DNA of 64,000 nucleotides from Escherichia coli (GTDB lineage: Bacteria; Pseudomonadota; Gammaproteobacteria; Enterobacterales; Enterobacteriaceae). Within the stretch, counting starts at the first letter, position 1. Every line of letters starts with the position of its first letter. A program made the position numbers. This document shows positions 51,001-54,000 of this stretch, piece after piece. The DNA is taken from the NCBI RefSeq assembly GCF_013315695.1, contig NZ_CP054353.1. One strand, given 5' to 3'.

Positions 51001-54000
51001 TTTAGTGTATGATGGTGTTTTTGAGGTGCTCCAGTGGCTTCTGTTTCTATCAGCTGTCCCTCCTGTTCAGCTACTGACGGGGTGGTGCGTAACGGCAAAA
51101 GCACCGCCGGACATCAGCGCTATCTCTGCTCTCACTGCCGTAAAACATGGCAACTGCAGTTCACTTACACCGCTTCTCAACCCGGTACGCACCAGAAAAT
51201 CATTGATATGGCCATGAATGGCGTTGGATGCCGGGCAACAGCCCGCATTATGGGCGTTGGCCTCAACACGATTTTACGTCACTTAAAAAACTCAGGCCGC
51301 AGTCGGTAACCTCGCGCATACAGCCGGGCAGTGACGTCATCGTCTGCGCGGAAATGGACGAACAGTGGGGCTATGTCGGGGCTAAATCGCGCCAGCGCTG
51401 GCTGTTTTACGCGTATGACAGGCTCCGGAAGACGGTTGTTGCGCACGTATTCGGTGAACGCACTATGGCGACGCTGGGGCGTCTTATGAGCCTGCTGTCA
51501 CCCTTTGACGTGGTGATATGGATGACGGATGGCTGGCCGCTGTATGAATCCCGCCTGAAGGGAAAGCTGCACGTAATCAGCAAGCGATATACGCAGCGAA
51601 TTGAGCGGCATAACCTGAATCTGAGGCAGCACCTGGCACGGCTGGGACGGAAGTCGCTGTCGTTCTCAAAATCGGTGGAGCTGCATGACAAAGTCATCGG
51701 GCATTATCTGAACATAAAACACTATCAATAAGTTGGAGTCATTACCGAAGCTCTCAATTTATGGGGAGATAAAGCCGAGATTATTCTCGCTCAACATCAC
51801 TGGCCAACCTGGGGCAACGATAACGTGGTCAAACTGCTTAAAAGCCAGCGTGATTTGTATCGTTACATCAATGATCAAACTCTGCGTATGGCAAATCAAG
51901 GGATGACCCGTGATGAAATTGCCGCAAACTTTAAACTGCCCTCTTCACTGGCTAATACCTGGGCGAATCGCGGCTATTACGGTTCGGTAAGTCATGACGT
52001 GAAAGCAACTTACGTGCTTTATCTCGGCTGGTTTGATGGTAACCCCGCGACGCTTGATGAACTGCCGCCAGAAGAAGGCGCAAAAAAATTCGTCGAGTAT
52101 ATGGGCGGTGCTGATGCCATTTTACAGAAAGCCAAACAGGATTATGACCAGGGTAATTTCCGCTGGGTTGCCCAAGTTGTTAGTAAGGTGGTGTTTACCG
52201 ATCCAAACAACCAGGCAGCGAGAAATCTGGAAGCTGATGCGCTTGAGCAGTTAGGCTATCAGGCTGAATCTGGGCCGTGGCGTAATTTCTATCTCACTGG
52301 CGCACAGGAATTGCGTAATGGCGTACAAAAATTACCAACACCAAATACTGCCAGCCCAGACACCGTGCGTGCGATGACGCCGGAGATGTTCTTTGATTAT
52401 CTTGCCGTCCATATTAATGGTGAGAAAGCGGCAGATGCCAAAACCGTGTTGAATTTCGATTTTGGTGAAGATGGCGGCACCTATAAAGTGGAGCTTGAAA
52501 ATGGTGTTCTCAATCATACCGCTGGTGTAGAGGCTTCGGATGCTGATGCCACTATCACTCTGTCTCGTGATGTATTGAACAAAATTGTACTGAAAGAAGA
52601 GACGCTGAAAGAAGCCACGGCCAAAGAAGATGTCAAAATTACTGGCAATGCGGAAAAACTCAACGAGCTGTTAGGTTATATGGATAATTTTGAATTTTGG
52701 TTCAATATAGTGACACCATAAATTTACTGCATACCGGGCAGGTATCCTGCCCTTTTTTGGTTAAAAAATGGCTGAACGAAGAAAAACGCATCACTCATGG
52801 AAAACCCGCCGCGATATGGTTATTCGCGGCATGACGATTAGTTTGCCATGGTTTGCTTTTATCAATGTCAGTTTTGCATTGATAATTTTGCTGCGCCGTG
52901 TTCTGTTTAATGACCTTACTCCACCCTGGTTAAATGAAAAAAGCCTTATACATTCTATTGATATATCTGCAACGGGTATTCTGCTGATTTGCAGTGGTTT
53001 ACTACTCATCCCTCGGCAAAAAACATTACCTATCCAGGTGCTATTAGTTGCCCTGAGCCTGCTATGGTCATGGTGTAGTTATCACTTTATTGCGTACTGG
53101 ACGCTGCAGTTTGCTTATCCACTATGTGTATTATTAATGCTTAGTGGCGTTATCGCACTTTATTTCCATACCCCATCATTGCTCGCATTTGTCATTCCCT
53201 TATGGTTCACCACTCCAATAGCGAGTCTTATGCTTAATCAACAGATCAATATTCATTTTGCTGTTGTATGGTGTATTTTTTCACTGGCGCTATATGGTGG
53301 GCGACTCATTTTGTTACGTTGGTTTGAAGAAGCATGGGTACAAAACAGTTATAACAACCAGTTAATTAATCGCCTTGATGCATTAGCACATCGTGATCCT
53401 TTAACTGGGATAGCAAACCGACGTGCAATGAACAGTATCTTACACGACGCGATAGATAACGGCGGGTCATTTGCTCTTATTATGCTGGATGTCGATTTTT
53501 TTAAACGTTACAACGACACTTACGGGCATCCTGCTGGGGATCGTTGTCTAATACAAGTTGCCGACGCTCTACAGCGTTCAACTCGCCAGTCGGAGGATGT
53601 TGTTGTCCGTTATGGTGGCGAAGAGTTTGTCATCATACTTTTTAATGCAACATTGCCGGAAGCAGAGACGGTAGCAGCCAGAGTGAAGCAAGAACTTAAA
53701 CTGGCAGCTATCCCGCATCAGGCATCTGCTGTTAATGCATTCGTTACGGTTAGTCAGGGGATTACCTGTTCTGCTCCCGCAAAAACGGCTGAACAAATTA
53801 TTTCAGATGCCGACGCTGCGTTATACCGGGCGAAAGAAAGTGGGCGAAATCGATGGGAAAAATAATTAAATGATTCCATTCCTCTTTAGTATCCCTTTTA
53901 GCTTTGGTATCTGACATACAGCATCAGCAATCGCATTGATGTTCGGGGCATTATCCTGAAACCATTCGTGTCCCGGTCCCCATGTGCGCATGGTGCAGAG

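What the first reader, a model, noticed from the sequence alone, without database searches (positions are those of the whole stretch)
52768..53865. Accessory membrane GGDEF cyclase in an AT-rich strain-variable block
A 365-aa protein with a multi-pass N-terminal membrane domain and an intact RYGGEEF active site lies between the sulfatase remnant and yncG, where K-12 (from memory) carries the rhsE/ydcD/ydcC block. The sequence preceding GGEEF (RQSEDVVVRYGGEEF) has R-x3-D rather than the canonical RxxD spacing, so product feedback inhibition may be absent. Together with the apparent loss of dosC/dosP this points to strain-specific rewiring of c-di-GMP signalling.
Basis: partly seen in the sequence, partly recalled or inferred. 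Interest (0 to 1): 0.45.

Follow-up and report, generated by a model that had tools for sequence, protein, structure and literature searches.

The report
Known accessory E. coli cyclase DgcY
The ORF is an intact copy of dgcY, an already named membrane-bound enzyme that makes the biofilm signal c-di-GMP and is carried by about 8% of E. coli genomes, so it is ordinary apart from two conserved, unexplained family features.

Summary
Window 52768..53865 (+) is an intact 365-aa ORF with a six-helix MASE5 membrane domain, a GGDEF domain, an intact GGEEF site and all catalytic residues. It lies between an IS1-broken alkyl sulfatase and a yncG pseudogene, in a 44% G+C block where K-12 carries yncH-rhsE-ydcD-yncI-ydcC.

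It is not new. The protein is identical to the SMS-3-5 gene downstream of the alkyl sulfatase, which the literature calls dgcY. It is not DgcX, which has MASE4 and sits beside prophages, and not a K-12 core gene. It occurs in 443 of 5426 complete E. coli genomes.

The R-x3-D spacing is real, but 116 of 117 MASE5-GGDEF representatives share it, so it is a family signature, not a strain defect. Whether feedback inhibition is lost is untested.

dosC is deleted and dosP 5'-truncated by another IS1.

dgcY looks retained rather than acquired. It or the sulfatase occupies the same locus in other Escherichia species, Citrobacter and an unidentified relative.

An alkyl sulfatase recurs beside MASE5-GGDEF genes in five genera, which suggests a functional link.

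Verdict: already known, functionally uncharacterised, modest interest.

The parts
52768..53865 (+). dgcY ORF, 365-aa form including the stop codon. This is the likely true coding region.
   Evidence: ORF list. The N-terminal 16 residues (W11, R14/R15, D16) are conserved in homologues, and Leclercia has Leu at the positions of M17 and M22. The Pantoea homologue aligns from residue 3. The AF2 helix starts at residue 14, with pLDDT 85 for residues 11-20.
52816..53865 (+). The same gene as annotated by PGAP (349 aa, WP_000236738.1). It is identical to the SMS-3-5 protein.
52840..53385 (+). MASE5 membrane-associated sensor domain (residues 25-206) with six transmembrane helices and short loops.
   Evidence: Pfam PF17178, E 7e-44. 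Hydropathy. AF2 helices 14-41, 58-80, 86-109, 116-131, 135-157 and 162-207.
53386..53853 (+). GGDEF catalytic domain (residues 207-362).
   Evidence: Pfam PF00990, E 2e-48. TIGR00254, 158 bits. PDB matches to ImcA, WspR, SiaD and PleD.
53614..53628 (+). A-site GGEEF (residues 283-287).
   Evidence: Direct reading. Invariant in 21 homologues.
53584..53598 (+). R273-Q-S-E-D277, at the position of the I-site. D277 is at the canonical position and the Arg is one residue too far upstream (R-x3-D).
   Evidence: Gap-free alignment to WspR RSSD. R273 and D277 are invariant in the family. 116 of 117 representatives have R-x3-D.
52736..52758 (+). Intrinsic-terminator-like hairpin (GGGCAGG-TAT-CCTGCCC followed by T6) between the sulfatase stop codon and the dgcY ATG.
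   Evidence: Scan. Fold. Fully conserved in the E. whittamii-like locus while its 5' flank diverges; absent in Leclercia, where the genes are 4 bp apart.
50364..50978 (+). 5' remnant of the periplasmic alkyl/aryl-sulfatase (SdsA1/YjcS type), the conserved upstream neighbour of dgcY.
50979..51746 (+). IS1 (768 bp) inserted in the sulfatase gene. It comes with loss of about 387 bp of the gene and has no target-site duplication.
51747..52721 (+). 3' remnant of the alkyl/aryl-sulfatase gene.
53866..54483 (-). yncG (glutathione S-transferase family), here a pseudogene with an in-frame stop at codon 91. It is convergent with dgcY, and the two stop codons abut.
50149..53867 (.). Block with no K-12 counterpart: sulfatase, IS1 and dgcY. 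K-12 carries 6.1 kb of yncH-rhsE-ydcD-yncO-yncI-ydcC here.
   Evidence: blastn breakpoints. K-12 annotation.
14439..15206 (+). Context: an IS1 copy that replaces dosC, yddY and the first 147 nt of dosP.
15207..17459 (+). Context: 5'-truncated dosP pseudogene.

Best explanation
**What it is.** The ORF is dgcY, the accessory E. coli diguanylate cyclase described by Povolotsky and Hengge in strains SMS-3-5 and CE10. The window matches E. coli MSB1_4I.

**How it most likely works.**
- The protein is an inner-membrane enzyme. A compact six-helix MASE5 domain has almost no periplasmic loops. Its last helix continues as a long stalk helix into a cytoplasmic, catalytically competent GGDEF domain.
- Like other stalk-linked cyclases, and like the solved 6TM-GGDEF enzyme ImcA, it most likely acts as a homodimer. 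The membrane domain would set the register of the two stalk helices and so bring the two GTP-loaded GGDEF domains together to make c-di-GMP. This step is inferred, not shown.
- The cue is probably sensed inside the membrane or through a membrane partner, not by a periplasmic ligand-binding domain (inferred).
- An SdsA1/YjcS-type alkyl sulfatase sits beside MASE5-GGDEF genes in Escherichia, Enterobacter, Leclercia, Salmonella and Pantoea, in different arrangements. The cue is therefore plausibly related to alkyl-sulfate or other detergent-like amphiphiles (speculative).
- The canonical RxxD inhibitory site is replaced by a family-wide R-x3-D. Classical product inhibition is probably altered, but this is untested.

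**History and state in this strain.**
- The gene looks like an old resident of the yddH/pptA-yncG interval that most E. coli, including K-12, lost to an Rhs element.
- In this strain the cyclase is intact, while its sulfatase neighbour and yncG are pseudogenes.
- dosC/dosP were destroyed by an unrelated IS1 event.
For: **Identity.**
- The window is 100% identical to E. coli MSB1_4I over 4.8 kb.
- The protein is WP_000236738.1, the same accession as the SMS-3-5 gene directly downstream of the alkyl sulfatase.
- The SalmoNet2 preprint (10.1101/2021.12.20.473597) states that 'dgcY in E. coli' was described together with the alkyl sulfatase EcSMS35_1714 in SMS-3-5 and CE10.

**Architecture and catalysis.**
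- Pfam MASE5 plus GGDEF, and TIGR00254.
- All catalytic residues are present and invariant in 21 homologues.
- Six TM helices and a continuous TM6-stalk helix at residues 162-207.
- The best PDB fold match is full-length ImcA, 8wcn: 369 aligned columns, E 5e-14, TM-score 0.53. ImcA is a 6TM-GGDEF homodimer whose TM domain is needed for activity (PMC10904736).

**Accessory status.** 443 of 5426 complete genomes carry it, and the sulfatase co-occurs, being full length in 439 genomes.

**Ancestral locus.**
- An E. whittamii-like Escherichia has sulfatase plus dgcY (93% aa identity) after pptA.
- E. albertii has the sulfatase followed by Rhs.
- Citrobacter amalonaticus has the sulfatase at the syntenic site.
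- A 63% identical homologue lies between yddH and yncG in another enterobacterium.

**Sulfatase linkage elsewhere.**
- Leclercia, tandem with a 4-bp gap.
- Enterobacter hormaechei, tandem.
- Salmonella enterica, divergent.
- Pantoea megaplasmid, three genes away.

**R-x3-D.**
Against: - **No expression or activity data.** Nothing exists for this gene, and the primary paper (PMC4686209) is not in the held library. The DgcY name therefore rests on a secondary citation plus locus identity.
- **Possible weak expression.** A strong terminator-like hairpin lies directly upstream of the start codon. There is no obvious Shine-Dalgarno sequence and no convincing promoter match. An IS1 sits further upstream, so the gene may be poorly expressed in this strain.
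- **The sulfatase link is not universal.** It is absent in Atlantibacter, Hafnia, E. cloacae DSM 26481 and the L096/L097 locus.
- **The sulfatase link is gene-neighbourhood evidence only.**
- **Uneven divergence.** The sulfatase is far more conserved than the cyclase between genera (86% against 53% identity), so the pair may not evolve as one unit.
- **The variant site may still work.** Invariance of R273 and D277 could mean that R-x3-D still binds c-di-GMP.
Confidence: 0.8

Rival explanations
1. The gene is intact but effectively silent or decaying in this strain. It has no promoter of its own and depends on read-through from the sulfatase gene, which is now interrupted by a polar IS1 and followed by a terminator. 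On this reading it contributes little to c-di-GMP pools and is on the way to becoming a pseudogene, like its two neighbours.
For: - A terminator-like hairpin with a T6 run lies 10 nt upstream of the ATG.
- No promoter-like match lies between the hairpin and the start codon, and there is no clear Shine-Dalgarno sequence.
- In Leclercia and Enterobacter the two genes are 4-52 bp apart, which suggests an operon.
- The sulfatase and yncG are pseudogenes here.
- Other strains carry IS1 or ISKpn26 inside dgcY itself.
- GC3 is low, at 37%.
Against: - The ORF is intact and its protein is identical to the one in distant strains. 434 of 443 genome matches are at least 99% identical, which argues for purifying selection.
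- Three of five substitutions in the N-terminal extension relative to E. whittamii are synonymous, and the frame stays open.
- In Salmonella the homologue is transcribed divergently from the sulfatase, so at least there it has its own promoter.
- A Pantoea MASE5-GGEEF promoter is active in biofilm (PMC8294551).
Confidence: 0.25
2. R-x3-D is a working variant of the inhibitory site. The Arg one residue upstream still reaches bound c-di-GMP, so DgcY remains subject to product inhibition, contrary to the first reader's suggestion.
For: - R273 and D277 are invariant across homologues that are only 35-50% identical, and 116 of 117 representatives keep R-x3-D. That is unexpected for a site that has lost its function.
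- The same R-x3-D-only pattern recurs in about 7% of unrelated GGDEF domains sampled.
Against: - The gap-free alignment puts Gln at the position of the canonical Arg.
- From my own knowledge (Christen et al. 2006, not read here), feedback inhibition depends strictly on the RxxD tetrad located five residues before GGDEF.
- The conserved Arg could instead have a structural role or contact a partner protein.
Confidence: 0.35
3. The protein is an enzymatically inactive GGDEF protein that acts as a c-di-GMP receptor or scaffold, like CdgI or CsrD.
For: The only support is that no activity has ever been measured for any MASE5-GGDEF protein in the literature I could search.
Against: - The GGEEF motif and all metal-, base- and phosphate-binding residues are intact and invariant in the family.
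- Degenerate GGDEF receptors normally keep the RxxD I-site and lose the A-site. This protein shows the opposite pattern.
Confidence: 0.05
4. The gene is a K-12 core cyclase (for example dgcF) displaced by misassembly, or it is the prophage-borne DgcX.
For: None found.
Against: - It is present in only 443 of 5426 complete genomes, at the same pptA-yncG site in the four E. coli genomes whose locus annotation was read (980-2, SMS-3-5, MSB1_4I) and in the feature lists of further hits.
- No NCBIfam equivalog of a named cyclase reaches its cut-off.
- The N-terminal domain is MASE5, not MASE4.
- DgcX has a sensor domain of about 270 aa with 8 predicted TM helices in the first description (six in a later one), later assigned to MASE4, an RxxD I-site, and lies next to lambdoid prophages (PMC4287979; PMC10459773).
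Confidence: 0.01

Closest known systems
DgcY of E. coli SMS-3-5 and CE10 (Povolotsky and Hengge 2016, J Bacteriol 198:111; called yreP in Salmonella)
   Same: - The 349-aa protein accession (WP_000236738.1) is the same as in SMS-3-5.
- The position is the same, directly downstream of the alkyl sulfatase EcSMS35_1714 and between pptA and yncG.
   Different: Nothing differs in the gene itself. In this strain the upstream sulfatase is broken by IS1 and yncG carries a stop codon. The Salmonella homologue is only about 48% identical, lies at another locus and is divergent from its sulfatase.
DgcX (MASE4-GGDEF), the other accessory E. coli cyclase
   Same: It is an accessory, membrane-anchored, GGEEF-active cyclase that is absent from K-12.
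   Different: DgcX has a MASE4 domain (about 270 aa, 8 predicted TM helices in the first description, six in a later one), a canonical RxxD I-site, and rides next to lambdoid prophages at attB or other sites. The present gene has a six-helix MASE5 domain, R-x3-D, and a fixed chromosomal locus with no prophage.
ImcA of Pseudomonas aeruginosa (PDB 8wcn), a 6TM-GGDEF homodimer
   Same: - It is the best solved-structure match over the full length: 369 columns, TM-score 0.53.
- It is also the best sequence match in the PDB, and that alignment extends into the last TM helix.
- It has six TM helices, a stalk and a GGDEF domain. Its TM domain is needed for activity and for binding a partner protein.
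   Different: It is only 23% identical overall. The aligned ImcA sequence has RxxD (RPLD) before GGEEF. It is controlled by the iron-sensing partner IsmP, and no such partner is known or encoded next to dgcY. This is a functional analogy, not shared MASE5 membership.
Canonical I-site cyclases (PleD, WspR, DgcZ)
   Same: They share the GGDEF fold and catalytic residues, with 31-37% identity across the domain.
   Different: They carry RxxD five residues before GG(D/E)EF and use soluble receiver or zinc-binding (CZB) input domains. DgcY has Q at the Arg position and a membrane input domain.
SiaD and the SiaABCD system of P. aeruginosa (detergent-induced aggregation)
   Same: SiaD is the second-best NCBIfam hit and the third-best fold hit for the GGDEF domain. 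The Sia system drives c-di-GMP-dependent aggregation in response to SDS (PMC4768041; details from my own knowledge). This offers a precedent for a link between detergents and a cyclase.
   Different: SiaD is soluble and is controlled by a phosphorylation partner switch. The SiaD equivalog score of 155 is far below its cut-off of 290. The resemblance in biology is only a hypothesis for DgcY.

Membership tests
GGDEF diguanylate cyclases (Pfam PF00990 / TIGR00254) | Significant match to the domain model over its full length | tested here: met
   PF00990, E 1.7e-48, model positions 1-161 of 161. TIGR00254, 158.1 bits against a cut-off of 37.4.
GGDEF diguanylate cyclases (Pfam PF00990 / TIGR00254) | Intact GG(D/E)EF A-site plus the metal-, guanine- and phosphate-binding residues | tested here: met
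   G283-G-E-E-F287, D241, K246, N249, D258, R281, K356 and R360 are present and invariant or nearly so in 21 homologues. They align with ImcA and WspR.
GGDEF diguanylate cyclases (Pfam PF00990 / TIGR00254) | Synthesis of c-di-GMP from GTP | not testable with these tools
   This needs an enzyme assay or an in vivo reporter.
I-site (RxxD) feedback-inhibited cyclases | RxxD tetrad ending six residues before the first Gly of GG(D/E)EF | tested here: not met
   The tetrad reads QSED and the Arg is one residue upstream. The same holds in 116 of 117 family representatives.
MASE5 sensor-domain proteins (Pfam PF17178) | Match to the MASE5 model, with multiple TM helices N-terminal to an output domain | tested here: met
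   PF17178, E 7.4e-44, model positions 2-192 of 192. Six TM helices. All 117 listed close homologues carry PF17178 plus PF00990.
E. coli DgcY | Same gene as the SMS-3-5 / CE10 cyclase described together with the alkyl sulfatase EcSMS35_1714 | tested here: met
   The protein accession is identical to the SMS-3-5 gene directly downstream of the only alkyl sulfatase at that locus. The naming comes from a secondary source. The primary paper is not held.
E. coli DgcX | MASE4 N-terminal domain, RxxD I-site, location beside a lambdoid prophage | tested here: not met
   The domain is MASE5, not MASE4. The site is R-x3-D. There are no prophage genes in the flanks.
K-12 core cyclases (DgcC, DgcJ, DgcN, DgcQ, DgcZ, DosC and others) | Equivalog-level match and presence in nearly all E. 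coli genomes | tested here: not met
   Every equivalog score is below its cut-off. Only 8% of complete genomes carry the gene. The K-12 locus has no homologous sequence.
ImcA-type 6TM-GGDEF cyclases | Homologous six-TM domain, homodimer, regulation by a membrane partner | tested here: inconclusive
   The full-length fold match has TM-score 0.53 and 23% identity. Sequence similarity is significant only from the last TM helix onward. Dimerisation and a partner protein cannot be tested here.

The most novel reading that the evidence does not exclude
MASE5-GGDEF cyclases, DgcY included, form a dedicated c-di-GMP input for membrane-active amphiphiles such as alkyl sulfates, detergents or sulfated lipids. 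They would be sensed inside the membrane by the six-helix MASE5 domain. The cyclase would be functionally coupled to the neighbouring SdsA1/YjcS-type alkyl sulfatase, and perhaps to a glutathione S-transferase. The family-specific R-x3-D would replace the classical I-site and change or abolish product inhibition.
Probability: 0.2. Interest if true: 0.5.

Novelty: already known. Interest (0 to 1): 0.22.

Why it matters
**Direct value.** This is a clean annotation. The ORF is dgcY, a named accessory cyclase. This strain combines an intact DgcY with IS1-mediated loss of DosC/DosP and of DgcY's sulfatase neighbour. Variation of this kind in the E. coli GGDEF/EAL gene set is already well documented, so a specialist would not be surprised.

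**Leads for an uncharacterised sensor family.**
- The R-x3-D site is invariant across the MASE5-GGDEF family.
- An alkyl sulfatase recurs beside these genes in five genera and several arrangements.
- The RefSeq start codon is probably 16 codons too short.

MASE5 has no known signal. These leads point to concrete experiments on what MASE5 senses and on whether this class escapes product inhibition.

Tried and rejected
- **DgcX.** Considered first and rejected: it has MASE4, RxxD and a prophage context.
- **Primary papers.** I tried to read Povolotsky and Hengge 2016 and the Hengge nomenclature paper by DOI and by PMC id. Neither is held. Full-text searches for DgcY, MASE5 and yreP gave only one useful secondary source, SalmoNet2.
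- **Word-index homologue search with the MASE5 domain alone.** It found almost nothing outside E. coli. The exhaustive HMMER search gave only 46 representatives, many of them fragments. The full-length query worked better.
- **Genome-contig scan with the family alignment.** The tool chose its patterns from the GGDEF core, so the scan was swamped by generic GGDEF proteins. Only two relevant loci came back. I reused the generic hits as a baseline for I-site motif frequencies.
- **Plasmid carriage.** Rejected. The only E. coli 'plasmid' hit is a mislabelled 4.9-Mb chromosome. The Pantoea and Rahnella hits are 50% identical homologues on megaplasmids.
- **RNA elements.** No Rfam family matches within 49500-55000. 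The 61-nt region around the hairpin does not fold significantly better than shuffled sequence (z = -1.7), although the hairpin plus T-run has the classic terminator shape.
- **Promoter scan.** It found no more sites than shuffled sequence, and none placed to serve dgcY.
- **Phylogroups.** I did not determine the phylogroups of the 443 carrier genomes.
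Full report

Yes. The six-frame ORF list gives an ATG-to-stop ORF of 365 aa at 52768..53865 on the + strand.
- Pfam places a MASE5 membrane-associated sensor domain at residues 25-206 (E 7e-44) and a GGDEF domain at residues 207-362 (E 2e-48).
- NCBIfam's GGDEF domain model scores 158 bits against a cut-off of 37. No equivalog model of a named cyclase (DgcZ, DgcN, DgcQ, DgcJ, AdrA, SiaD, PleD) reaches its cut-off.
- Hydropathy shows six hydrophobic segments between residues 21 and 184, with a positively charged N-terminus.
- An AlphaFold2 model built on 21 homologues has mean pLDDT 84.7. 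It shows six membrane helices, the last of which (residues 162-207) runs on as a stalk into the GGDEF domain.
- The block is AT-rich: 43.4% G+C and 36.9% GC3 for the gene, against 49.0% for the window.

**2. Catalytic site and inhibitory site**

The catalytic site is complete.
- The motif RYGGEEF lies at residues 281-287.
- The residues matching PleD D327, K332, N335, D344, E370/E371, K442 and R446 are all present: D241, K246, N249, D258, E285/E286, K356 and R360. The PleD numbering is from my own knowledge.
- They are invariant or nearly invariant in 21 family members and align with ImcA and WspR.

- In a gap-free alignment WspR reads S-R-S-S-D-LAARY-GGEEF and this protein reads R-Q-S-E-D-VVVRY-GGEEF.
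- The Asp is therefore in place, but Gln occupies the Arg position, and the Arg lies one residue upstream.

This is not a peculiarity of the strain.
- R273 and D277 are invariant in the family alignments.
- 116 of 117 MASE5-GGDEF cluster representatives have R-x3-D. The remaining one has RRxxD.
- For comparison, among 90 generic intact GGDEF domains from unrelated genomes, 71% have RxxD and 7% have only R-x3-D.
- So the canonical I-site is absent. The variant is under constraint, and its function is unknown.

**3. What the gene is**

- The window is 100% identical over 4.8 kb to E. coli MSB1_4I, a human rectal swab isolate from Australia.
- RefSeq annotates the gene there as a 349-aa 'GGDEF domain-containing protein', WP_000236738.1.
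- The same accession marks the gene directly downstream of the alkyl/aryl-sulfatase in E. coli SMS-3-5, in the order pptA, sulfatase, GGDEF gene, yncG, ansP.
- The SalmoNet2 preprint states that 'yreP (dgcY in E. coli)' and the alkyl sulfatase 'EcSMS35_1714' were first described together in E. coli SMS-3-5 and CE10.
- The ORF is therefore dgcY, one of the two extra membrane cyclases reported by Povolotsky and Hengge (2016). That much of the paper I recall from memory. The paper itself is not in the held library.
- It is not DgcX. DgcX has a sensor domain of about 270 aa, with eight predicted TM helices in its first description and six in a later one, which was later assigned to MASE4. It also has an RxxD I-site and lies beside lambdoid prophages.
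- It is not a K-12 core gene. Only 443 of 5426 complete E. coli genomes carry it, 436 of them over at least 80% of its length.

**4. Locus and history**

- Homology with K-12 ends at window 50148, next to pptA, and resumes at 53868, the yncG stop codon. K-12 carries 6.1 kb of yncH, rhsE, ydcD, yncO, yncI and ydcC in between.
- The sulfatase co-occurs with dgcY in E. coli. It is full length in 439 genomes.
- An E. whittamii-like Escherichia has sulfatase plus dgcY (93% protein identity) at the same place.
- E. albertii keeps the sulfatase, but homology stops exactly at the dgcY start, where an Rhs gene follows.
- Citrobacter amalonaticus has the sulfatase in the syntenic yddH-pptA region.
- A 63% identical MASE5-GGDEF gene lies between yddH and the yncG-type GST in another enterobacterium.
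- The simplest reading is long residence at this locus, with replacement by an Rhs element in most E. coli. Recent acquisition fits less well, though I did not map this on a tree.
- No mobile plasmid carries the gene.

**5. State in this strain**

- The cyclase is intact, but its neighbours are not.
- A 768-bp IS1 at 50979-51746 interrupts the sulfatase. About 387 bp of the gene is lost and there is no target-site duplication.
- yncG has an in-frame stop at codon 91.
- About 37 kb upstream, an identical IS1 at 14439-15206 replaces dosC, yddY and the first 147 nt of dosP.
- A third IS1 lies between pqqU and mcbR.
- The genome holds at least 40 IS1 matches.
- The 'loss of dosC/dosP' is therefore confirmed, but it is an independent IS1 event.

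**6. Start codon and expression**

The 365-aa form is better supported than the annotated 349-aa form.
- The upstream 16 residues contain W11, R14/R15 and D16. These recur in homologues from Enterobacter, Salmonella and Hafnia.
- Leclercia has Leu at the positions of both internal Met codons.
- Pantoea homologues align from residue 3.
- The frame stays open in the E. whittamii-like sequence, with three synonymous and two non-synonymous changes.

The expression signals are unclear.
- Directly upstream, between the sulfatase stop codon (52721) and the ATG, lies a 7-bp GC-rich hairpin followed by T6 (52736-52758).
- The hairpin is fully conserved in the E. whittamii-like locus while its flank diverges. 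It is absent in Leclercia, where the genes are 4 bp apart.
- I found no convincing promoter or Shine-Dalgarno sequence and no Rfam element.
- Expression may therefore depend on read-through from the sulfatase gene. In this strain IS1 could disrupt that. This is the main rival reading: an intact but poorly expressed gene.

**7. How it probably works**

- The best solved-structure match over the full length is P. aeruginosa ImcA (8wcn): 369 aligned columns, TM-score 0.53 and 23% identity.
- ImcA is a 6TM-GGDEF homodimer. Its membrane domain is required for activity and for binding a regulatory partner.
- By analogy, and from the continuous TM6-stalk helix, I infer a dimeric enzyme in which the MASE5 helices control the juxtaposition of the GGDEF domains.
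- Because the loops are very short, the signal is most likely sensed within the membrane or through a membrane partner.

A lead on the signal comes from gene neighbourhood. An SdsA1/YjcS-type alkyl sulfatase lies next to MASE5-GGDEF genes in several genera.
- Escherichia: tandem.
- Leclercia and Enterobacter hormaechei: tandem, after tynA.
- Salmonella enterica: divergent, with a 285-bp shared intergenic region at another locus.
- Pantoea agglomerans: on a megaplasmid, three genes away, with a FadL-type outer-membrane transporter between them.
- The sulfatase is absent from the neighbourhood in Atlantibacter, Hafnia, E. cloacae DSM 26481 and L096/L097.

This suggests, but does not show, a link to alkyl-sulfate or detergent-like amphiphiles. 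Detergent-induced, cyclase-dependent aggregation is known in P. aeruginosa through SiaD (PMC4768041). That is an analogy only.

**8. Comparison with what is known, and verdict**

- The gene is a full member of the GGDEF and MASE5 families and is the named DgcY.
- It fails the test for I-site cyclases, for DgcX and for the K-12 core cyclases.
- No experimental work on E. coli DgcY turned up in the searchable library. The only functional hint for the family is that a Pantoea MASE5-GGEEF promoter is active in biofilm and on roots.
- The finding is correct as a description but already known. Its interest is modest.
- The conserved R-x3-D, the sulfatase linkage and the probably mis-set start codon are small, testable additions.

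Noticed in passing
window 14439-17459: An IS1 (14439-15206) replaces dosC, yddY and the first 147 nt of dosP. The rest of dosP (15207-17459) remains as a pseudogene without promoter or start codon, between digH and ddpX.
   Followed up: yes
window 50979-51746: The IS1 in the alkyl/aryl-sulfatase gene has no 9-bp target-site duplication, and about 387 bp of the gene is missing. This suggests an IS1-mediated adjacent deletion rather than a simple insertion.
   Followed up: partly
window 59803-60570: A third identical IS1 copy, in reverse orientation, lies between pqqU (yncD) and mcbR. RefSeq also shows an IS1 truncating ortT just beyond the window. The genome has at least 40 IS1 matches, so this is an IS1-expanded strain.
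   Followed up: no
window 53866-54483 (-): yncG (GST family) carries an in-frame stop at codon 91. Its stop codon directly abuts the dgcY stop codon, with no intergenic base, and the K-12 homology breakpoint falls exactly there.
   Followed up: partly
window 52768-52815: The RefSeq/PGAP start for dgcY (52816) is probably 16 codons too short. Conserved W, R and D residues lie upstream of it in homologues, and Leclercia lacks the internal Met codons.
   Followed up: yes
L006, L102, L098/L099, L100 (related loci): An SdsA1/YjcS-type alkyl sulfatase recurs beside MASE5-GGDEF genes: tandem in Leclercia and Enterobacter, divergent in Salmonella, and three genes away with a FadL-type transporter between in Pantoea. 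These are different genomic contexts.
   Followed up: partly
window 53866-54483; L097 2589-3206; L100 3010-3612: A glutathione S-transferase gene is also a repeated neighbour of MASE5-GGDEF genes: yncG in E. coli and in L097, and a GST immediately upstream in Pantoea agglomerans.
   Followed up: no
L090 (E. albertii) 6978-11060: In E. albertii the sequence after the sulfatase switches to an Rhs/YD-repeat gene exactly at the position of the dgcY start. This parallels the rhsE block of K-12 and suggests repeated Rhs-associated replacement at this site.
   Followed up: partly
(window 47001-50980 against 51741-57600): Identity to SMS-3-5 differs on the two sides of the IS1: 97.5% on the left and 99.0% on the right. 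Sulfatase alleles in E. coli also split into a group at 99% or more and a group at 95-99%. This hints at a recombination boundary inside the sulfatase gene.
   Followed up: no
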